From: a virus
Length of the DNA stretch: 5,214 bases
Reading direction: 5' to 3' (one strand)
Virus record (IMG/VR): IMGVR_UViG_3300045988_031142
Span: 1 to 5,214 of that record
The stretch's first letter is position 1. Every line of letters begins with the position of its first letter. The notes below the pieces were generated by a model. The model had not been told where the DNA came from. It did not search any database and was given only the letters and a program-made list of their open reading frames with translations. Positions 1-5,214 of this stretch are shown here, in pieces. A program made the position numbers and the translations under genes.

Positions 1-176
1 CTGATAAGTCTTCTGCTGCATCCCGCTATGGTGCTGATAAGTCTTCTGCTGCATCCCGCTATGGTTCTGATAAGTCTTTTGATGCTAAAAAGCGTTATGG
101 CAATGGTGGAATGTTTGGTTATTTTTCTGGTAATCTTGCTGATGCATTGACTGAAATTATAGGAGTTTTTAAGTGA
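1..176 (+). CDS. C-terminal part of the VP2 (minor capsid / DNA pilot) gene. It is the continuation of the CDS that begins at 4382 and runs off the window end. Codon phase: first full codon at 3; stop TGA at 174-176.
   Basis: Positions 1-55 are identical to 5160-5214. Reading on from 5214 into position 56 keeps the frame exactly (…SRYGADKSSAASRYGSDKSFDAKKRYGNGGMFGYFSGNLADALTEIIGVFK*). The same 33-nt/11-aa SRYGADKSSAA repeat unit is present. Confidence 0.8.
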   Translation, partial: DKSSAASRYGADKSSAASRYGSDKSFDAKKRYGNGGMFGYFSGNLADALTEIIGVFK

Positions 177-256
177 TGTATAGTCTTGTTCTTTGTTTGG
201 CTATGTCTGTTGTAGCTGCTGTTTTTTATCTTGTGATTAAAAATCTAATTAGATAA
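176..256 (+). CDS. Small hydrophobic ORF, 26 aa: MYSLVLCLAMSVVAAVFYLVIKNLIR. Predicted single transmembrane helix with a basic C-terminal tail. Hypothetical membrane peptide, candidate lysis or accessory protein.
   Basis: The ATG at 176 overlaps the VP2 stop (aagTGATGta). AGGAG at 161-165 lies 10 nt upstream. 18 of 26 codons end in T, matching the strong third-position T preference of the confirmed genes. Residues 4-21 form an uninterrupted hydrophobic stretch followed by K-N-L-I-R. Too short to appear in the supplied ORF track. Confidence 0.4.
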   Translation: MYSLVLCLAMSVVAAVFYLVIKNLIR

Positions 257-267
257 ATTTCTTTTAT

Positions 268-317
268 AAAGGAAGCGAAGCGAGTCGCGCCCCTGCGCCA
301 AGCTCCGCTTCTTTTTT
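268..317 (+). terminator. Rho-independent terminator downstream of the VP2 / small-ORF module.
   Basis: GC-rich imperfect hairpin: gaagcg 272-277 pairs with cgcttc 306-311; inner pairs agc 279-281 with gct 302-304, and gcgc 287-290 with gcgc 295-298 around loop ccct. It is immediately followed by TTTTTT at 312-317. The A-run at 268-270 upstream can extend the stem. Confidence 0.6.
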
Positions 318-337
318 GCACTCCTTGCCAAAATGGT

Positions 338-356
338 ATGCAGTTTCAGACTGCAT
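338..356. other. Short perfect hairpin: 7-bp stem, 5-nt loop.
   Basis: atgcagt (338-344) / ttcag loop / actgcat (350-356) are exact reverse complements. Confidence 0.5.
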
Positions 357-386
357 AAAATCTCGGCTGCCGTATCGCATGCCGAA

Positions 387-423
387 CTCGTGCCCATTAC
401 CTTCTTGATGTAATGGGCACGAG
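387..423. promoter_or_regulatory. Perfect 14-bp inverted repeat with a 9-nt loop in the intergenic region. Candidate origin of replication / Rep nick site, or complementary-strand origin or packaging signal.
   Basis: ctcgtgcccattac (387-400), loop cttcttgat (401-409), gtaatgggcacgag (410-423), exact reverse complements. The loop contains CTTGAT, which resembles the phiX174 gene-A nick-site core (…ACTTG^ATATTAAT…, recalled from memory). Confidence 0.45.
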
Positions 424-511
424 TGACACCAAGACACGCAAACTTTCGTTCATATTCTTAAATAGCTACCTAAATTATTTAATAAATATACGAATATACG
501 CTAAATTTATA

Positions 512-540
512 TTGACATAAAATAAAAAATATTCTATGAT
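512..540 (+). promoter_or_regulatory. Sigma70-type promoter for the VP4 (rep) transcription unit.
   Basis: TTGACA at 512-517, 17-nt AT-rich spacer, TATGAT at 535-540. It sits in a ~150-nt AT-rich tract (440-590) containing a tandem 8-mer aatatacg x2 (485-500). It lies ~70 nt upstream of the VP4 start. Confidence 0.55.
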
Positions 541-609: not shown

Positions 610-1575
610 GTGTCTTGTTTTCATCCTATGTTGGCAGTCAGCACTGGTTTAAATTCCAATGGCAAGCGTGATATCAAATTTGTTGCTGGCCCTACCGAGT
701 GGGAATCTTACCCGCCTAACGCTCGTCTAAAGATTCCTTGTGGTCGCTGTGTTGGTTGTCGCCTTGAGCGTTCCCGTCAATGGGCTAATCGTTGTATGTT
801 GGAATTGCAGTATCATGAGTCAAGTTACTTTGTCACGCTGACTTATGATGATGACCATGTCCCTGTGACGTATTATTCTGAGAATGATGATGGTGAAGCT
901 CGTAGTGGTCTAACGCTTCGTTCTCGTGATTTCCAGCTTTTTATGAAACGATTGCGAAAGGAACATTCATATGAGCGTCTACGCTTCTTTGCCTGTGGCG
1001 AGTATGGGTCTACTACTTATCGCCCTCATTATCACGCAATTATTTTTGGACTCACTATCGACGATTTGCGACCCTACAAACGTAGCCCCCAAAACTATGA
1101 TTATTTCATTAGTGATTCTCTTGCTAAGTGTTGGGGTCTCGGCTTTGTTGTGGTCGGTGCGGTAACGTGGGAAACTTGCGCCTACACTGCTCGTTATATT
1201 ATGAAAAAAGCCCTTGGTGAAGGTGCTGAGGTGTATGACCGCTTTAATATTGAACCTGAGTTTGTGCGGATGTCTCGTAAGCCTGGCATTGCTTATCAGT
1301 ATTACGCTGACCATCCTGATTTGTATCAGTATGAATATATCAATCTTCCGACCGATAAAGGCCAGCTGAAATTTCGCCCGCCTCGTTATTATGACCGCCT
1401 TTTTGATGTTGATAATCCCGAGCAGATGGCAAGGATAAAGGCAAAGCGCCAGCACGCCGCGTTGGTAGATGTTCATAACAAGTCTTTGCAAACGTCCCTT
1501 ATTGAGCCTGACCGTTTGGCAGTTGAAGAAGCTGCTTTGACGGCTCGCATAAAATCACTTGAAAGGAAGTTGTAA
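610..1575 (+). CDS. Replication initiator protein VP4 (rolling-circle HUH endonuclease; Microviridae gene A / VP4 family). GTG start.
   Basis: 321-aa ORF. The N-terminus MSCFHPMLA matches the conserved MxCxHP start of microvirus Rep proteins. Cys cluster CGRCVGC. HUH motif RPHYHAIIFGL. Catalytic tyrosine motif AYTARYIMKKAL. GAGGTG at 596-601 lies 8 nt upstream of GTG 610. An alternative ATG at 628 has no Shine-Dalgarno sequence and would delete the conserved N-terminus. Confidence 0.9.
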   Translation: MSCFHPMLAVSTGLNSNGKRDIKFVAGPTEWESYPPNARLKIPCGRCVGCRLERSRQWANRCMLELQYHESSYFVTLTYDDDHVPVTYYSENDDGEARSGLTLRSRDFQLFMKRLRKEHSYERLRFFACGEYGSTTYRPHYHAIIFGLTIDDLRPYKRSPQNYDYFISDSLAKCWGLGFVVVGAVTWETCAYTARYIMKKALGEGAEVYDRFNIEPEFVRMSRKPGIAYQYYADHPDLYQYEYINLPTDKGQLKFRPPRYYDRLFDVDNPEQMARIKAKRQHAALVDVHNKSLQTSLIEPDRLAVEEAALTARIKSLERKL

Positions 1576-1576
1576 A

Positions 1577-1690
1577 ATGCGCAAGAAAACTAAACCCAAG
1601 TTGGACAACAAAATTTTCCGTCGCACCGCTGCCCGCAGTAAGAAGATTAACATTGACCCTAAAATTTTTCGTGGAGGTATTCGCTTATGA
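1577..1690 (+). CDS. Small highly basic protein, 37 aa: MRKKTKPKLDNKIFRRTAARSKKINIDPKIFRGGIRL. Putative DNA-binding / DNA-condensing protein (phiX J-like / gokushovirus ORF8-like).
   Basis: The ATG at 1577 is 1 nt after the VP4 stop, with AAGGAAG at 1563-1569 upstream. 13 of 37 residues are K/R. Its stop overlaps the VP5 start in ATGA (1687-1690). Not in the ORF track because it is under 60 aa. Confidence 0.55.
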   Translation: MRKKTKPKLDNKIFRRTAARSKKINIDPKIFRGGIRL

Positions 1691-1935
1691 AACTCGGACT
1701 TTATTCCATCAAGGACGCCAAGACCGGCTTTATGACCCCTGTGCTTGAGCAGGGTGACCCCGCTGCTCTCCGTAACTTTGCTCATGCTGTGAATCAGTCT
1801 GATTCTATCATGCATGACTGCCCTAATGATTTCTCTCTTTTCAAGGTCGCGAACTTCGATACCGATAAAGGTGTTGAGCCTGTGACCAGCCCTATTCTCA
1901 TTGTTGATGCCTCTGAGGTGCTGCGCAATGGCTGA
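1687..1935 (+). CDS. VP5 (non-structural; gokushovirus VP5 family, thought to act in ssDNA synthesis / packaging).
   Basis: 82 aa: MKLGLYSIKDAKTGFMTPV…ALRNF…PNDFSLFKVANFDTDKG. This matches the conserved pattern of gokushovirus VP5 (MKLF.V.D.K…AIR.F…P.DF.L…FD..TG). Size and position after rep are typical. Confidence 0.75.
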   Translation: MKLGLYSIKDAKTGFMTPVLEQGDPAALRNFAHAVNQSDSIMHDCPNDFSLFKVANFDTDKGVEPVTSPILIVDASEVLRNG

Positions 1936-2065
1936 AATGTGTGATTTGTATTTTAATATTGATGTTTCTGAGGCTCTTAAGATTCTTGACGTTTCTCAAT
2001 TAACTGCTCTTTTGAATGAGTGCAGATATGAGCTTGAAAGGAGAATTGTTTCTGATGAAAAATAA
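1928..2065 (+). CDS. Hypothetical small acidic protein, 45 aa: MAEMCDLYFNIDVSEALKILDVSQLTALLNECRYELERRIVSDEK.
   Basis: The ATG overlaps the VP5 stop (ATGGCTGA, 1928-1935). 26 of 45 codons end in T, matching the genome-wide coding bias. No internal stops. No clear Shine-Dalgarno sequence, so it would need translational coupling to VP5. Confidence 0.35.
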   Translation: MAEMCDLYFNIDVSEALKILDVSQLTALLNECRYELERRIVSDEK

Positions 2066-2186: not shown

Positions 2187-2670
2187 TACTCAGTATACCC
2201 CGCATAATCGCATTGCCGCCAATGCTGGCTCACCCGTCAAGGTTCTTTACGGCGGTAAGTATGATGCTAACGGCCGTGTTGTGCTTGAGAAGAAAGGTGA
2301 AGAGAATCTATATGACTATATCCAGTCTTTTCGCGACTCGGTTGATCTCAACGTTATCCTCGCCCGCTTTACCAACGGCGATGTGGAAGCCCTTAATAAG
2401 GCTCAGGGCTTTTATGCAGACGTGACCGATTTTCCGAAGAATATGGCCGATGCTCTTAACCGTATCAATCAGGCCGAAGAGATGTTCAAGGCTCTTCCGC
2501 TCGAGACCCGGCAGAAGTTCGATTGTTCGTTTGAACAGTTTCTTGCTCAGTCTGGTACTGAGGATTGGTTGTCTAAGATGGGCTTTGAGACCTTTTCGCC
2601 GGTAGAGTCCGAGACCCCACCTGCGCCGGTTTTGCCTGATGCTGTAAAGGAGATCAAGAATGAATCGTAA
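2179..2670 (+). CDS. VP3 internal scaffolding protein (gokushovirus VP3 family).
   Basis: 163 aa starting MFDTQYTPHNRIAAN, with GAGGAG at 2161-2166 upstream. The region …LYDYIQSFRDSVDLNVILARF… resembles the conserved core of gokushovirus VP3. The ORF track starts the frame at ATG 2116, but that ATG has no Shine-Dalgarno sequence and the extra N-terminal codons do not follow the genome's T3 codon bias. Overlaps VP1 by 11 nt. Confidence 0.75.
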   Translation: MFDTQYTPHNRIAANAGSPVKVLYGGKYDANGRVVLEKKGEENLYDYIQSFRDSVDLNVILARFTNGDVEALNKAQGFYADVTDFPKNMADALNRINQAEEMFKALPLETRQKFDCSFEQFLAQSGTEDWLSKMGFETFSPVESETPPAPVLPDAVKEIKNES

Positions 2671-4327
2671 TGTTGAATCGCATTTTGCGCTGAATCCGAC
2701 TCGTATTGATATGTCCCGTTCGACGTTTGATCGTTCGGCCTCTGTCAAGACCTCTTTTAATGTCGGTGATATCGTCCCTTTTTTCCTCGAAGAGGTGCTT
2801 CCCGGCGATACGTTCAATGTACGTACTTCCAAAGTTGTGCGTATGCAGACCCTTCTAACGCCGATGATGGACAATCTCTACCTTGATTCGTACTTTTTCT
2901 TTGTTCCGAACCGTTTGGTTTGGAATCACTGGAAGGAGTTTAACGGTGAAAACACTGAAAGCGCGTGGATTCCTACGACGGAGTATTCTGTACCTCAGAT
3001 TACGTCGCCTTCCGCTGGTTGGTCTGTTGGTACTCTTGCCGATTATTTTGGCCTGCCTACAGGTGTCGGCGGTCTGAGTGTGTCCGCTTTGCCGTTCCGC
3101 GCTTATGCACTCGTTATGAACGAGTGGTTTCGCGATCAGAACTTGCAAGATCCGCTTGTTGTGCCGGTTGATGATGCTACGGTCGTTGGCGTCAATACCG
3201 GAAATTTCGTGACCGATTGTGCGAAAGGCGGTCTTCCTTATATCGCTGCCAAGTATCATGATTATTTTACGTCCTGCCTCCCCAGCCCGCAGAAAGGTCC
3301 TGATGTAACTCTTTCTGTTGCTTCTCAGGGTGATTTGCCGGTATACGCTGGTTCTCAGTCTATTTCGTCTGATTTTAATCAGACTTCGATGCGTATGACT
3401 GGTATTAATGGCTTAGGTGCTCAAGCTTCTAATATTATTCTTTCTGGCACTGGTAACGAGCGTGGTGTTGTTGCGTCTAATTTTACTGGTGGTGTTGGTG
3501 ATAGCAATTGGATTTTAGCTCCGTCTAATCTTTGGGCGCGAAATTCTGGCAATGCTATTATTGCTACTATTAACCAACTTCGTATGGCCTTTCAGATTCA
3601 GAAACTTTACGAGCGCGACGCGCGCGGCGGTACTCGTTATATCGAGGTTCTCAAGTCTCACTTCGGTGTGACTTCTCCTGATGCTCGTTTGCAGCGTCCC
3701 GAGTATCTCGGTGGTAACCGTGTTCCGATTAATGTGAATCAGGTAATCCAGCAGTCCGGCACTGGCGCCGGTGCTGATACTCCGCAGGGCACTGTTGTTG
3801 GTATGTCTCAGACTACGGATTCCAACCACGATTTTATGAAGTCGTTTACTGAGCATGGCTATATTATTGGTGTTATGGTCGCTCGTTATGATCATACCTA
3901 TCAGCAGGGTATTGAGCGTCATTGGTCTCGTAAGACGCGCTTTGATTACTATTGGCCGGTCTTCGCCAATATTGGCGAGCAGGCTGTGCTTAATAAGGAG
4001 ATTTTTGCGCAGGGTACCGCAAAGGATAATGAGGTTTTTGGCTATCAGGAAGCATGGTCTGATTACCGCTATAAGCCTAATCGCGTTACCGGTGAGATGC
4101 GTTCGGCCTATGAACAGTCTCTTGATGTCTGGCATTTGGCGGATGACTATGCGAGTCTTCCGTCACTGTCTGATAGTTGGATTCGTGAAGATAAGAATAC
4201 CGTTGACCGTGTTCTTGCAGTTAAGTCTTCTGTTTCTGACCAGCTTTTTGCGGATATCTATGTTTCCAATCGCGCCACGCGCCCGATGCCTATGTATTCT
4301 GTGCCCGGCCTTATTGACCATCACTAA
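2660..4327 (+). CDS. VP1 major capsid protein (Microviridae F / gokushovirus VP1 jelly-roll capsid protein).
   Basis: 555 aa. The N-terminus MNRNVESHFALNPTRIDMSRSTFDRS…FNVGDIVPFF.EEVLPGDTF is the characteristic gokushovirus VP1 start. AAGGAG at 2647-2652 lies 7 nt upstream. There is a long Ser/Gly/Asn-rich insertion (~nt 3300-3540), as in the gokushovirus threefold 'mushroom' loop. Confidence 0.92.
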   Translation: MNRNVESHFALNPTRIDMSRSTFDRSASVKTSFNVGDIVPFFLEEVLPGDTFNVRTSKVVRMQTLLTPMMDNLYLDSYFFFVPNRLVWNHWKEFNGENTESAWIPTTEYSVPQITSPSAGWSVGTLADYFGLPTGVGGLSVSALPFRAYALVMNEWFRDQNLQDPLVVPVDDATVVGVNTGNFVTDCAKGGLPYIAAKYHDYFTSCLPSPQKGPDVTLSVASQGDLPVYAGSQSISSDFNQTSMRMTGINGLGAQASNIILSGTGNERGVVASNFTGGVGDSNWILAPSNLWARNSGNAIIATINQLRMAFQIQKLYERDARGGTRYIEVLKSHFGVTSPDARLQRPEYLGGNRVPINVNQVIQQSGTGAGADTPQGTVVGMSQTTDSNHDFMKSFTEHGYIIGVMVARYDHTYQQGIERHWSRKTRFDYYWPVFANIGEQAVLNKEIFAQGTAKDNEVFGYQEAWSDYRYKPNRVTGEMRSAYEQSLDVWHLADDYASLPSLSDSWIREDKNTVDRVLAVKSSVSDQLFADIYVSNRATRPMPMYSVPGLIDHH

Positions 4328-4381: not shown

Positions 4382-5214
4382 ATGTCTGATTTTTCTGAAG
4401 CTTTAAACACTGGTGCCAATCAGATTGCTCATATGCAAGGCGTTGCACAGGCAAATAATGCATGGTCTGCCGGACAAGCTCAAATTCAGCGTGAATGGCA
4501 GGAGCAACAGAATGCTAAGGCTATGGCTTTTAACCAGAATGAGGCTGCTAAAAATCGTAACTGGCAGGAGATGCTTTCTAATACTGCTCATCAGCGTGAG
4601 GTGCGTGACCTTATGGCTGCTGGTCTTAATCCTGTGTTATCTGCCATGAATGGAAATGGCGCTTCTGTCGGCTCCGGCGCTACCGCTCAAGGTGTGACCT
4701 CGCAAGGTGCTAAAGGTGATACAGATACTTCCGCTAATGGCGCTATTGCTAATCTGCTTGGTTCTATCCTCTCTGCTCAGACCCAAATAGAGGCCGCTAA
4801 TATCAACGCTAAGACACAGGAAGCCGTTGCAGATAAGTATACTGCCATGGAGAAGATTGTTGCTGAGACTGCCGCTGCTGCTTCGCGTTATGGTGCTGAT
4901 ACTTCTTCCGCCGCTTCTCGCTATGGTGCTGATACCTCTGCCGCCGCTTCTCGCTATGGTGCTGATAAGTCTGCTTCTGCTTCTCGTTATCATTCTGATC
5001 GGAGTTATGAAGCTTCTCGTTATGGAAGTGATCGCGCTGCTATGGCATCTATGTTTGGTTCTTCTCAGATGGCTTCTGCATCTCGTTATGGTGCGGAACA
5101 GTCTCGTCTTGCTTCTCAGTATGCTTCTGACAAGGCTTATGCTGCATCCCGCTATGGTGCTGATAAGTCTTCTGCTGCATCCCGCTATGGTGCTGATAAG
5201 TCTTCTGCTGCATC
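4382..5214 (+). CDS. VP2 minor capsid / DNA pilot protein, 3'-truncated by the window edge. It continues at window position 56 (or equivalently 1) through to the stop at 174-176. Full length ~317 aa.
   Basis: ATG at 4382 is 6 nt after AAGGAG. The frame stays open to the window end (277 codons); the supplied ORF track lists only ORFs with an in-window stop, so it misses this one. N-terminus MSDFSEALNTGANQIAHMQGVAQANNAWSAGQAQIQREWQEQQNAKAMAFNQNEAAKNRNWQEMLSNTAHQREVRDLMAAGLNPVL: the Gln/Asn/Ala-rich helical region and the …LMAAGLNP… motif are typical of gokushovirus VP2. The position after VP1 is as expected. Confidence 0.85.
   Translation, partial: MSDFSEALNTGANQIAHMQGVAQANNAWSAGQAQIQREWQEQQNAKAMAFNQNEAAKNRNWQEMLSNTAHQREVRDLMAAGLNPVLSAMNGNGASVGSGATAQGVTSQGAKGDTDTSANGAIANLLGSILSAQTQIEAANINAKTQEAVADKYTAMEKIVAETAAAASRYGADTSSAASRYGADTSAAASRYGADKSASASRYHSDRSYEASRYGSDRAAMASMFGSSQMASASRYGAEQSRLASQYASDKAYAASRYGADKSSAASRYGADKSSAA
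4880..5214 (+). repeat. In-frame tandem array of a 33-bp (11-aa) unit, consensus A-S-R-Y-G-A-D-K/T-S-S-A. Ten units, continuing into window positions 1-98.
   Basis: Units read from the translation: SRYGADTSSAA, SRYGADTSAAA, SRYGADKSASA, SRYHSDRSYEA, SRYGSDRAAM…, SRYGAEQSRLA, SQYASDKAYAA, SRYGADKSSAA, SRYGADKSSAA, SRYGSDKSFDA. The last copies are identical at the nucleotide level (gctgataagtcttctgctgcatcccgctatggt at 5159-5191, again from 5192, and at 33-65). Confidence 0.9.

What the first reader, a model, noticed from the sequence alone, without database searches (positions are those of the whole stretch)
176..256. Unannotated 26-aa single-TM peptide translationally coupled to the VP2 stop: candidate lysis or membrane effector
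A TGATG stop/start overlap with VP2, an AGGAG 10 nt upstream, a strongly T-ending codon bias matching the real genes, an 18-residue hydrophobic core followed by a basic tail (KNLIR), and an intrinsic terminator immediately downstream. No lysis gene is established for gokushoviruses as far as I know. Small TM peptides are the classic form of single-gene lysis proteins, and phiX E likewise relies on an N-terminal TM helix. It could also be a small membrane-targeting accessory protein.
Basis: seen in the sequence. Interest (0 to 1): 0.65.

Follow-up and report, generated by a model that had tools for sequence, protein, structure and literature searches.

The report
Unannotated small membrane-peptide gene after VP2
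A 26-codon gene for a tiny membrane-spanning peptide sits directly behind the DNA-pilot gene of this gut gokushovirus; comparison with relatives suggests it is a real but dispensable accessory gene, so it is probably not the long-sought gokushovirus lysis gene.

Summary
The window is a circular gokushovirus genome. VP2 wraps the ends and stops at 174-176. ATG 176 overlaps that stop (TGATG), AGGAG lies 10 nt upstream, and the ORF encodes MYSLVLCLAMSVVAAVFYLVIKNLIR. A conserved hairpin plus T6 follows 15 nt later.

In isolation the ORF is only modestly unusual (about 3% of shuffles). The weight comes from 32 distinct relatives sharing the hairpin:
- 5 carry this 26-aa peptide intact.
- 16 carry, in the same slot, a gapless 36-37-aa peptide ending IRWLNRH.
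- 3 are disrupted.
- 8 lack the DNA altogether.

The IRWLNRH family (71 clusters, no curated family, no paper) is clearly protein-coding. It always follows the pilot gene, including in Treponema and Bacteroidales prophages, and it survives as solitary chromosomal copies beside dif. Sequence homology of the window peptide to that family is unproven (6.9 bits, p about 0.05).

The lysis reading is weakened but not excluded. Collinear relatives and lytic E. coli gokushoviruses lack the gene, and solitary copies are tolerated by hosts.

Verdict: probably a real accessory inner-membrane peptide translated by coupling to VP2. A non-lytic role is favoured (about 0.45), lysis is about 0.2, and a spurious ORF about 0.13.

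The parts
4382..5214 (+). VP2 (DNA pilot protein) gene, 5' part; continues at window 56 because the genome is circular.
   Evidence: The ORF reads through the window end. Bases 1-55 are identical to 5160-5214. GenBank relatives annotate the homologue as 'similar to VP2' or DNA pilot protein. It contains 33-nt tandem repeats.
1..176 (+). VP2 gene, 3' part (1-55 duplicates 5160-5214); stop codon TGA at 174-176.
   Evidence: The C-terminus ...GNLADALTEIIGVFK is shared with L005-L008.
161..165 (+). Shine-Dalgarno AGGAG inside the last VP2 codons, 10 nt before ATG 176 and 7 nt before GTG 173.
   Evidence: An SD-like core (AGGAG, GGAG, AGGA or GGAGG) is kept in all ORF-bearing relatives. In family B it is encoded by the VP2 C-terminal 'GGF'. 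It is absent from the VP2 ends of relatives that lack the ORF.
176..256 (+). Small ORF of 26 codons plus TAA (alternative in-frame GTG start at 173): MYSLVLCLAMSVVAAVFYLVIKNLIR.
   Evidence: It is intact in all 5 distinct family-A genomes, with 13 variable sites and no stop or frameshift. Codon-position T profile is 0.23/0.58/0.69. It is not in any protein collection.
185..238 (+). Predicted transmembrane helix, residues 4-21 (LVLCLAMSVVAAVFYLVI).
   Evidence: Kyte-Doolittle 17-residue mean is 2.79 and 19-residue mean 2.65. VP2 itself reaches at most 0.96. All 6 replacements seen in relatives stay apolar or small.
239..253 (+). Basic C-terminal tail KNLIR, predicted cytoplasmic by the positive-inside rule.
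   Evidence: This can be read directly from the sequence. Relatives have RNLIR or KNLKK. hhalign pairs VIKNLI with IIRWLN of family B, but without significance.
268..317 (+). Intrinsic terminator: interrupted GC-rich hairpin (stem 271-311) followed by T6 (312-317).
   Evidence: Energy -22.2 kcal/mol, z = -2.6. It is nearly invariant in 32 distinct relatives whether or not the small ORF is present.

Best explanation
Bases 176-256 are a genuine, so far unannotated gene of a circular gokushovirus genome.

Shown:
- It is the last cistron of the late VP1-VP2 transcription unit.
- Its start overlaps the VP2 stop (TGATG) behind an SD that lies in the last VP2 codons.
- It ends 15 nt before a conserved hairpin-T6 terminator.
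- It encodes a 26-aa peptide with an 18-residue hydrophobic helix and a basic tail.

Inferred:
- Ribosomes finishing VP2 re-initiate on it. It is therefore made late and in small amounts.
- It inserts into the cytoplasmic membrane with the 3-residue N-terminus outside and KNLIR inside.

It fills a 'peptide slot behind the pilot gene'. In sister genomes that slot holds 36-37-aa peptides of a Microviridae-wide family with an almost invariant ...VIRWLNRH tail.

The slot is empty in a quarter of the closest, otherwise collinear relatives and in lytic E. coli gokushoviruses. Family-B copies also survive alone next to chromosomal dif sites. I therefore read it as a dispensable accessory membrane effector, not the phage's lysis gene.

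The mechanism I favour is inference only. The peptide sits in the inner membrane of the infected (or lysogenic) cell. Through its short cytoplasm-facing tail and helix it interferes with, or tunes, passage of microvirus DNA delivered by VP2-type pilot proteins. That would be superinfection exclusion, or a phiX174-K-like fitness function.

Sub-probabilities:
- real translated gene: 0.8
- non-essential: 0.75
- non-lytic accessory role of any kind: 0.45
- exclusion specifically: 0.25
For: Anatomy.

Presence or absence of the whole segment:
- When the ORF is present the VP2 stop lies 90-128 nt before the hairpin. When it is absent the distance is 10-38 nt. The extra DNA therefore exists only as an ORF.
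- 21 of 24 segment-bearing genomes have it intact.

Family B in the same slot is demonstrably coding:
- 16 distinct sequences align without gaps over 36 codons, with 76 of 108 sites variable.
- There are 0 in-frame stops, against 1-4 stops in the other two frames.
- The hydrophobic core shows at least 51 amino-acid replacements, of which only 1 is polar or a stop. The expectation is 18% (p = 4e-4).
- The IRWLNRH tail is kept through synonymous swaps: Arg CGA/CGT/CGG/AGG/AGA/CGC, Leu by several synonymous codons including CTT, TTA and CTA, plus ATT/ATC, AAT/AAC and CAT/CAC.

Start context: overlap or close proximity to the VP2 stop and an SD are conserved.

Same slot in distant lineages:
- other gokushoviruses, L083-L103
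- a Treponema socranskii prophage
- Alpavirinae-like Bacteroidales prophages
- a gokushovirus prophage

Dispensability:
- 8 of 32 relatives lack it and 3 of 32 have it disrupted, with no substitute gene.
- E. coli gokushovirus prophages have basic VP8 and then dif after VP2. Phage EC6098 nevertheless lyses E. coli (PMC7062461).

Host tolerance:
- Solitary intact copies with a TAnnTTTG-like motif upstream lie beside dif in prophage-free Bacteroidales alleles and in a Phocaeicola MAG.
- One lysogen carries both a resident and a phage copy.
Against: - Family A on its own shows no statistical sign of selection. pN/pS is 0.65, variable sites by codon position are 6/4/3, and the core test gives p = 0.25.
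- Its homology to family B is unproven. hhalign probability is 1.9%. The score against the family HMM is 6.9 bits, reached by 89 of 2000 shuffles, and the best unrelated window ORF scores 5.9 bits.
- The dispensability and solitary-copy arguments come largely from family B and from distant lineages, so they are extrapolated.
- Solitary copies could be neutral remnants next to dif rather than selected genes, and their expression is not shown.
- No exclusion protein of any microvirus is known for comparison.
- No lysis gene has been identified anywhere in these genomes, so a lytic role cannot be excluded.
- Closely related ssRNA phages also differ in where their lysis genes lie (PMC7693330). Absence in relatives is therefore weak evidence against lysis.
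- The TM prediction rests on hydropathy only.
Confidence: 0.45

Rival explanations
1. Lineage-specific single-gene lysis (or lysis-timing) peptide. Low-level, late, VP2-coupled synthesis delivers a TM peptide that blocks a cell-wall precursor step or depolarises the membrane and so triggers lysis. This would be analogous to phiX174 E or to the 35-37-aa lysis proteins of ssRNA phages.
For: - It meets the operational Sgl candidate criteria of at least 25 codons, an SD and a TMD (PMC7693330).
- It is coupled to the termination of a late structural gene, as MS2 L is (my knowledge).
- No other lysis gene is recognisable in these genomes, and no peptidase lies next to any family member examined.
- Gokushovirus lysis is an open question.
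- Lysis-associated accessory genes of other microviruses occupy the VP1-VP4 interval (PMC9239249).
- Patchy distribution and a fast-evolving TM segment are typical of Sgls.
- In the hairpin clade, family B has a mid-helix Pro in 15 of 16 sequences, reminiscent of Pro21 of E.
Against: - 8 of 32 collinear close relatives and the lytic E. coli gokushoviruses lack it, with no visible substitute.
- In family B the conserved part is the 7-residue cytoplasmic tail, not the TM segment. It is conserved across phages of Spirochaetota and Bacteroidota. This is unlike known Sgls, which share almost no similarity.
- Solitary intact copies are tolerated in host chromosomes.
- The window peptide has no Pro.
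- There is no hit to Pfam Microvir_lysis.
- In the Sgl screen most TMD-bearing candidates had no phenotype: 178 of 293.
Confidence: 0.2
2. A cofactor of the pilot protein. The peptide supplies in trans the membrane anchor that this clade's VP2 lacks. It would act during DNA delivery as a minor virion component, or during VP2 handling and assembly at the membrane.
For: - Strict synteny with the pilot gene holds in three deeply divergent microvirus lineages.
- Coupled translation would give a fixed stoichiometry with VP2.
- VP2 of this clade has no TM-like segment (maximum hydropathy 0.96). VP2/H proteins are generally described as having an N-terminal TM domain (PMC3394797, PMC3091885).
- The peptide type co-varies with the VP2 C-terminal type.
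Against: - Relatives with a near-identical VP2 N-terminal domain and no TM segment manage without the peptide.
- The co-variation may be simple linkage inside one recombining cassette.
- In some Bacteroidales prophages the gene lies 48-560 nt from VP2 and seems to have its own promoter.
- Solitary copies make no sense for a virion or assembly factor.
- Gokushovirus virions are reported to contain only VP1 and VP2 (PMC3091885).
Confidence: 0.12
3. A non-functional ORF: a chance open frame in T-rich spacer DNA between VP2 and the terminator, or a decaying relic of the longer family-B gene.
For: - 20% of shuffles keep an ORF of at least 25 codons, and 2.8% are also TM-like.
- Hydrophobic SD-led ORFs abound in alternative frames.
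- Family A shows no codon-level selection signal.
- Only five distinct sequences exist.
- It is 10 codons shorter than family B and has lost the W and H of the tail.
- Disrupted family-B copies exist: L014, L018 and L019.
Against: - A 5-kb ssDNA genome rarely keeps about 80 nt of useless spacer. Relatives without the ORF have deleted the spacer.
- All 5 variants keep the start, the SD, the frame, the stop and the hydrophobicity.
- The segment is as conserved as the flanking functional DNA: 94.4% identity, against 88.9% in the VP2 3' end.
- The codon-position composition is gene-like and unlike the adjacent non-coding DNA.
- The slot is occupied by a demonstrably coding gene in sister genomes.
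Confidence: 0.13
4. Not a separate gene. A programmed -1 ribosomal frameshift near the end of VP2 would add the hydrophobic segment as a C-terminal membrane anchor to a fraction of VP2.
For: The ORF is in the -1 frame relative to VP2, and a T5 run (166-170, GTTTTTAAG) precedes the stop.
Against: - There is no canonical X XXY YYZ heptamer.
- The T run is broken in L005 and L006 (GTTTTCAAG, GCTTTCAAG), and family B has unrelated sequence there.
- There is no stimulatory RNA structure (z = -0.5).
- A start codon and an SD are conserved instead.
- In other lineages the gene is separated from VP2 by 3-560 nt.
Confidence: 0.02

Closest known systems
Uncharacterised Microviridae small-protein family with a C-terminal ...(A/L)(V/I)IRWLNRH tail (for example UniRef A0A8S5MVQ9, 'Uncharacterized protein, Microviridae sp. 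ct4S516'); called 'family B' here.
   Same: - Same genomic slot: directly behind the pilot gene and before the same conserved terminator in sister genomes.
- Same start context: overlap or proximity to the VP2 stop, with an SD in the VP2 3' codons.
- Same architecture: a 2-5-residue, often acidic, N-terminus, one hydrophobic helix and a short basic tail.
- The tail pattern VI[KR]xLxR is shared.
   Different: - The window peptide is 26 aa rather than 32-56 aa.
- It has no mid-helix Pro.
- Its tail is IKNLIR: it lacks the aromatic residue, the Asn and the terminal His.
- Profile scores do not separate it from noise.
- The family itself has no known function, no Pfam, PHROGs, NCBIfam or PADLOC model, and no literature.
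phiX174 lysis protein E (Pfam Microvir_lysis; inhibitor of MraY).
   Same: A small microvirus protein with an N-terminal TM helix in an N-out/C-in orientation, made in small amounts late in infection. It is the only lysis mechanism worked out in Microviridae (PMC3394797).
   Different: - E is 91 aa and is embedded out of frame inside scaffold gene D (my knowledge). Here the gene is a free-standing cistron.
- E's activity lies in its TM helix with an essential Pro21 (my knowledge). The window peptide has no Pro, and in family B the tail is the conserved part.
- There is no sequence match.
- The gene here is dispensable in close relatives.
Single-gene lysis proteins of ssRNA phages (MS2 L; 35-37-aa Sgls such as LysM; the candidates of Chamakura et al. 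2020, PMC7693330).
   Same: Similar size, a single TMD, an SD, dependence on translation of the upstream structural gene (MS2 L; my knowledge), and patchy distribution among relatives.
   Different: - Those Sgls share almost no similarity with each other and arise de novo, mostly embedded in other genes.
- The slot peptide here is syntenic across deep lineages, and in family B it has an invariant motif.
- No lytic phenotype has been tested.
phiX174 protein K (a small, hydrophobic, non-essential protein reported to raise burst size; my knowledge).
   Same: A small hydrophobic accessory protein of a microvirus. It is dispensable and is made from the same polycistronic transcripts.
   Different: K is 56 aa and overlaps genes A and C (my knowledge). 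There is no sequence similarity, and its mechanism is equally obscure.
Phage superinfection-exclusion inner-membrane proteins (for example T4 Imm, HK97 gp15; my knowledge).
   Same: Small phage-encoded inner-membrane proteins that are harmless to the host and block DNA entry of related phages. They are often kept in prophages and prophage remnants, as the solitary family-B copies next to dif are.
   Different: Those proteins are larger (about 80 aa or more, often with 2 TM segments), belong to tailed phages and are unrelated in sequence. No PADLOC hit was found. No exclusion assay exists for any member of this family.
Type I toxin peptides (Hok, Fst, PepG1).
   Same: A 25-50-aa peptide with a single TM helix and a charged tail. 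Family member P0032 gives weak sub-threshold hits: PepG1 at 16.6 bits against a cut-off of 70.
   Different: The scores are far below the cut-offs. No antisense RNA partner was looked for or seen. The genes are phage-borne and coupled to a structural gene.

Membership tests
phiX174 E / Pfam Microvir_lysis | Sequence match to the family profile | tested here: not met
   A Pfam scan of the window peptide and 9 family-B members at E up to 10 gave only sub-threshold generic TM hits and no Microvir_lysis hit.
phiX174 E / Pfam Microvir_lysis | Gene embedded out of frame within the scaffold gene; TM helix with an essential proline | tested here: not met
   The ORF is a free-standing cistron after VP2 and shares only 1 nt with it. 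The window peptide has no Pro. The definition of E's features is from my knowledge.
Single-gene lysis candidates (operational criteria of PMC7693330) | [quoted passage not shown] | tested here: met
   26 codons, AGGAG 10 nt upstream, and hydropathy 2.79 over 17 residues. Criteria as quoted. TMHMM itself was not available.
Single-gene lysis candidates (operational criteria of PMC7693330) | Lysis or growth arrest on induced expression | not testable with these tools
   This needs wet-lab expression, and the native host is unknown.
IRWLNRH-tail microvirus peptides (family B) | Gene immediately downstream of the pilot (VP2) gene, at the end of the late operon | tested here: met
   The window ORF overlaps the VP2 stop. 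Family B is in the same place in 16 sister genomes and in distant prophages.
IRWLNRH-tail microvirus peptides (family B) | Short N-terminus, one hydrophobic helix and a short basic C-terminal tail; total length about 30-55 aa | tested here: met
   The architecture is the same, but at 26 aa the window peptide is shorter than any of the 71 cluster representatives (29-56 aa).
IRWLNRH-tail microvirus peptides (family B) | C-terminal motif I-[RK]-[WYF]-L-[NDE]-R-[HK] | tested here: not met
   The window has I-K-N-L-I-R. Only I, K/R, L and R fit. The aromatic residue, the Asn and the His are missing.
IRWLNRH-tail microvirus peptides (family B) | Profile score above background | tested here: inconclusive
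   hhalign probability is 1.9%. The score against a 95-sequence HMM is 6.9 bits, the best among 138 window ORF tails, but the next scores 5.9. 89 of 2000 composition-matched shuffles reach it.
Translationally coupled distal cistron | Start codon overlapping or abutting the upstream stop, with an SD inside the upstream gene, conserved in relatives | tested here: met
   TGATG in family A. ATGA, GTGA, or GTG 11 nt before the stop in family B. The SD core is conserved. Actual re-initiation is not testable here.
Rho-independent terminator | GC-rich hairpin directly followed by a U-tract | tested here: met
   Stem 271-311 plus T6 at 312-317, -22.2 kcal/mol, z = -2.6. It is conserved in 32 relatives.
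Programmed -1 frameshift extension of VP2 | A conserved slippery heptamer and a downstream stimulatory structure | tested here: not met
   There is no X XXY YYZ heptamer. The T run is not conserved. No structure is present (z = -0.5).
Anti-phage defence / superinfection-exclusion proteins (PADLOC models) | Match to a known defence-protein profile | tested here: not met
   No PADLOC family at E up to 10 for 10 peptides. The functional analogy therefore rests only on context.

The most novel reading that the evidence does not exclude
The peptides encoded directly behind the pilot gene may form a previously unrecognised, widely distributed gene class of Microviridae. This class would include the 26-aa form here and the IRWLNRH-tail family. 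The peptides would act at the cytoplasmic membrane on the DNA-entry step mediated by the pilot protein, as a gate or a block. Bacteroidales would have domesticated them next to their dif sites as anti-microvirus immunity genes. An equally novel alternative is that they are the missing lysis effectors of gut gokushoviruses and act through the conserved cytoplasmic tail on a universal envelope-synthesis target.
Probability: 0.25. Interest if true: 0.8.

Novelty: new member of a known kind. Interest (0 to 1): 0.55.

Why it matters
Microvirus genomes hold only six to ten genes and are among the most abundant phages of the gut. An extra conserved gene that annotation has missed, because it falls below gene-caller length limits, changes the parts list.

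How gokushoviruses lyse cells, and how they exclude one another, is unknown. This slot supplies concrete, synthesisable candidates of 26-50 aa for both questions. The invariant IRWLNRH tail of the sister family points to a defined molecular partner.

The solitary copies beside chromosomal dif sites suggest an unexplored case of phage-gene domestication in Bacteroidales. They also offer a tractable test system.

If the peptide does turn out to be lytic, it would be a new protein antibiotic lead of minimal size.

Tried and rejected
- Exact and similarity searches for the window ORF. The phage collection by DNA and by tblastn, IMG/VR by exact DNA and exact protein look-up found nothing beyond four near-identical relatives.
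- The search for homologous proteins refuses queries under 40 aa. I worked around this with a 48-aa family member as the first row of the alignment.
The replacement DNA-pattern scan gave 15 hits, of which only 1 was genuine (Phocaeicola) and the rest were chance.
- PHROGs, Pfam, NCBIfam, PADLOC and Rfam gave nothing above cut-offs.
- Codon-level pN/pS was 0.65 in both families and is not discriminating for short TM peptides. I replaced it with a hydrophobicity-preservation test and a synonymous-codon test.
- Homology of family A to family B by hhalign and HMM was marginal.
- RNA structure sequestering the SD or start: none.
- -1 frameshift fusion with VP2: rejected.
- An alternative universal lysis candidate is the 64-aa two-TM ORF overprinted on VP4 (971-1165). 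It is open in all relatives, but the chance of that given the VP4 protein is 0.27 and there is no T3 excess, so it is a by-product.
- I looked for the slot peptide in the experimentally tractable E. coli gokushoviruses. It is absent; VP8 and then dif follow VP2.
- A dif-like motif in the window: only a weak ATAA-N6-TTAT at 541-556 inside the promoter region, so I make no claim.
- GenBank phage records carrying family B: none detectable. The low-complexity filter may contribute.
- Complementary distribution with M15 peptidase genes could not be tested, because the loci of the 6.7-kb group do not cover whole genomes.
Full report
**What the window is.** The 5214-nt window is a complete circular gokushovirus genome with a 55-nt terminal redundancy (1-55 = 5160-5214). 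The gene order is VP4 (610/628-1575), a basic VP8-like ORF (1577-1690), VP5 (1687-1935), two small ORFs, VP3 (2179-2670), VP1 (2660-4327) and VP2. VP2 runs from 4382 to 5214 and continues from 56 to 176. The closest GenBank records are pig-faeces 'Microviridae sp.' genomes whose homologous ORFs are annotated 'similar to VP1/VP2'.

**Check of the observation.**
- The VP2 stop is TGA at 174-176. ATG 176-178 overlaps it as TGATG, and an in-frame GTG lies at 173.
- AGGAG lies at 161-165.
- The ORF runs 176-256 and encodes MYSLVLCLAMSVVAAVFYLVIKNLIR. It has an 18-residue apolar core (Kyte-Doolittle 2.79 over 17 residues) and the tail KNLIR.
- T frequencies by codon position are 0.23/0.58/0.69. Third-position T in the real genes is 0.35-0.57, and T in the neighbouring non-coding DNA is 0.31.
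- An interrupted hairpin (stem 271-311) followed by T6 (312-317) folds at -22.2 kcal/mol with z = -2.6. The consensus scan missed it because of its internal loops.

As a single-sequence observation this is only moderately unusual. 20% of shuffles of the spacer keep an ORF of at least 25 codons behind the fixed ATG, and 2.8% are also TM-like. The T-rich codon bias also creates many hydrophobic, SD-preceded ORFs in alternative frames of the real genes.

**Comparative evidence in the closest clade.** I anchored on the near-invariant terminator hairpin and on VP2. This collected 32 distinct relatives from GenBank, IMG/VR and metagenomes.
- *Family A.* Five genomes, including the window, carry the 26-aa peptide. 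All are intact. They show 13 variable sites with no stop or frameshift, and every replacement is apolar or conservative.
- *Family B.* Sixteen genomes carry a 36-37-aa peptide in exactly the same place: ...LLVP...VIAVIRWLNRH.
- *Disrupted or divergent.* Three genomes have a frameshifted (L014), internally deleted (L018) or divergent (L019) version.
- *Absent.* Eight genomes have no ORF, and they also have no spacer. VP2 stops 10-38 nt before the hairpin, instead of 90-128 nt.

So the extra DNA exists only where it is an ORF. The eight ORF-less genomes are otherwise collinear and have no additional gene. They differ in the C-terminal part of VP2, so 'VP2 C-terminus plus peptide' behaves as one exchangeable cassette. 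ORF-bearing VP2s end in ...GGF(G/K/R).. or ...G(V/A/F)FK, whose codons supply the SD. ORF-less VP2s do not.

**Is the slot coding?** For family B the answer is clearly yes.
- The 16 sequences align without a single gap over 108 nt, although 76 sites vary.
- They have no in-frame stop, against 1-4 stops in each other frame.
- The hydrophobic core has undergone at least 51 amino-acid replacements. Only one is to a polar or charged residue or a stop, where 18% would be expected (p = 4e-4).
- The tail IRWLNRH is preserved through synonymous codon swaps. Arg is encoded by CGA/CGT/CGG/AGG and by AGA/CGC/CGA. Leu is encoded by several synonymous codons, including CTT, TTA and CTA. Ile, Asn and His each use two codons.

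For family A the same tests are underpowered: pN/pS is 0.65 and the core test gives p = 0.25. What can be said is that the segment is as conserved as its functional flanks. Its identity is 94.4%, against 88.9% for the VP2 3' end and 95.9% for the terminator region.

**The wider family.** A profile of family B finds about 40 clusters in a 5.8-billion-protein database and 71 cluster representatives in a 1.84-billion-protein library. All are 29-56 aa, and those checked in the first search lie mostly on contigs of about 5 kb. They are unnamed or labelled 'hypothetical', for example UniRef A0A8S5MVQ9 from Microviridae sp. ct4S516.
- The helix varies freely in sequence and length. The tail (A/L)(V/I)I(R/K)(W/Y/F)L(N/D)R(H/K) is nearly invariant.
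- No Pfam, PHROGs, NCBIfam or PADLOC model matches above its cut-off. The motif occurs in no searchable paper.
- In every context examined within a phage genome or prophage, the gene directly follows the pilot gene. These are gut gokushoviruses, including more distant ones (L083, L102, L103), a gokushovirus-like prophage in the Treponema socranskii chromosome, Alpavirinae-like prophages and circular genomes of Bacteroidales, and a gokushovirus prophage next to a RadA-like gene.
- Other gokushoviruses have differently tailed TM peptides at the VP2 stop (L084, L085, L087, L089-L091, L094).
- Some lineages have none: L092-L100, the 6.7-kb group, and the E. coli enterogokushoviruses, where basic VP8 and then the phage dif follow VP2.

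**Is the window peptide a member?** By position, start context and architecture, yes. By sequence, this is not demonstrable.
- hhalign pairs VIKNLI with IIRWLN at 1.9% probability.
- Against a 95-sequence HMM the peptide scores 6.9 bits. That is the top score among 138 ORF tails of the window, but the next is 5.9 bits, and 89 of 2000 composition-matched shuffles reach it.

I therefore file it as 'same slot, same design, homology unproven'.

**Solitary copies and dif.** In a Bacteroidales population one lysogen (L176) carries an Alpavirinae-like prophage. The prophage is flanked by direct copies of TTTTCCCATAATCGGTATTATGTTAAAT, a dif-like site whose XerD arm is identical to that of E. coli dif.
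- The phage's peptide gene ends 20 nt before the phage-side dif.
- A second, resident copy lies just outside the prophage in inverted orientation.
- Prophage-free alleles (L146-L149, L154-L155) keep only this resident copy. It comes with about 146 nt of upstream sequence, including a TAnnTTTG motif, and with a degenerate half-dif. It occurs in at least three intact variants that differ by in-frame indels.
- A Phocaeicola MAG has another solitary intact copy, whose tail uses six codons different from the gokushovirus version.

These are prophage remnants in which every phage gene except the peptide gene was lost.

**How it most likely works.**

Shown:
- a free-standing distal cistron
- a start overlapping the VP2 stop
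- an SD inside VP2
- a terminator directly behind
- a hydrophobic helix plus a basic tail

Inferred:
- Expression occurs by termination-reinitiation, so it is late, low and proportional to VP2. There is no RNA structure gating the start, and no conserved slippery site that would allow a frameshift fusion.
- The topology is N-out/C-in by the positive-inside rule.

Function cannot be read from sequence. The lysis reading has these points in its favour:
- the Sgl-candidate criteria are met
- no other lysis gene is visible
- the question is open in the field

Against it:
- the gene is absent from collinear relatives and from E. coli gokushoviruses that lyse normally
- the conserved element of the sister family is a cytoplasmic tail shared by phages of different phyla, which is unlike Sgls
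- hosts retain solitary copies

I therefore favour a dispensable, non-lytic membrane effector (0.45). Superinfection exclusion at the pilot-mediated DNA-entry step is the most specific guess (0.25). Lysis or lysis timing stays at about 0.2, a VP2 cofactor at 0.12, a non-functional ORF at 0.13, and a frameshift extension at 0.02. Much of the argument against lysis is borrowed from family B, and it would weaken if family A proves unrelated.

**Comparison with known systems and novelty.** The closest known things are phiX174 E, ssRNA-phage Sgls, phiX174 K, small exclusion proteins of tailed phages and type I toxins.
- The peptide resembles all of them in size and design, and it is a demonstrable member of none.
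- It is a new, unannotated example of the general kind 'small phage-encoded single-pass membrane peptide'.
- The pilot-adjacent slot and the IRWLNRH family appear not to have been described.

I rate interest at 0.55. This is a credible new gene in a minimal genome, it is linked to two open questions (lysis and exclusion), and it comes with concrete test systems. Its function is unresolved, however, and the headline lysis idea is weakened.

Noticed in passing
window 1-85 and 4880-5214: The window ends fall inside a 33-nt tandem repeat of VP2 (11-aa unit about ASRYGADKSSA, roughly 10 copies). Bases 1-55 duplicate 5160-5214, so the true circle is 5159 nt (or 5192 nt, because the repeat makes the overlap ambiguous). 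Relatives that lack the small ORF have only 2-3 copies.
   Followed up: partly
window 386-424: A perfect 15-bp inverted repeat (ACTCGTGCCCATTAC / GTAATGGGCACGAGT) with the loop CTTCTTGAT. It is conserved at 87-95% identity in many otherwise divergent GenBank gokushoviruses (H6-H24). The loop resembles the phiX174 origin nick site CAACTTG|ATA, so this is probably the (+)-strand replication origin recognised by VP4.
   Followed up: partly
window 334-358: A second small hairpin (ATGCAGT ttcag ACTGCAT) lies between the terminator and the origin-like hairpin. Its stem is kept in relatives, while its loop and inner stem vary.
   Followed up: no
window 512-540: A near-consensus sigma-70 promoter (TTGACA-17-TATGAT, 11 of 12) lies upstream of VP4. 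Together with strong AGGAG-type SDs before most genes, it argues against a Bacteroidota host for this clade. This is inference only.
   Followed up: no
window 971-1165: A 64-aa ATG-initiated ORF with two hydrophobic segments is overprinted in the +1 frame on the HUH-motif region of VP4. It is open in all 24 or more relatives, including those without the small ORF. The chance of an open frame given the VP4 protein and the codon usage is 0.27, and there is no excess of T at VP4 third positions. It is most likely a by-product and not an E-like gene.
   Followed up: yes
window 1928-2065 and 2055-2186: Two SD-preceded small ORFs (45 and 43 aa) fill the VP5-VP3 interval. The interval is only about 90 nt in relative L033. 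This looks like a second variable accessory slot.
   Followed up: partly
L176 1883-1913 and 8816-8846; L146 5751-5781: Bacteroidales Alpavirinae-like prophages are flanked by a dif-like 28-mer, TTTTCCCATAATCGGTATTATGTTAAAT, whose XerD arm is identical to that of E. coli dif. This implies Xer-mediated integration. A resident solitary peptide gene lies about 220 nt from the chromosomal dif site.
   Followed up: partly
L141 1606-6144 (Treponema socranskii GCA_050768795.1): A gokushovirus-like prophage (Rep, ORF5, Phage_F, a 125-aa ORF, a 269-aa pilot-like ORF, and a 47-aa peptide ending IIRWLNRKDRK) is integrated in a spirochaete chromosome between an FtsW/RodA-family gene and sugar-nucleotide genes.
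   Followed up: no
L004 938-1651 (MG945407) and L029 4770-5198: In relatives without the small ORF, a long alternative-frame ORF with a hydrophobic start overlaps the 3' half of VP2 and runs through the terminator hairpin. GenBank annotates it 'similar to hypothetical protein'. Whether it is a functional overprinted gene was not examined.
   Followed up: no
L174 5776-6000 and L175 5918-6120 versus window 1577-1690: The basic VP8/J-like gene (...RGGIRL) lies after VP2 and before dif in E. coli enterogokushoviruses, but after VP4 in this window. This is a gene-order difference within Gokushovirinae.
   Followed up: no
L028 (IMGVR_UViG_3300045988_040015, 5654 nt): This contig carries the terminator hairpin twice (484 and 5614), with two different family-B peptide variants upstream. 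It is probably a chimeric or over-length assembly of two co-occurring strains.
   Followed up: no
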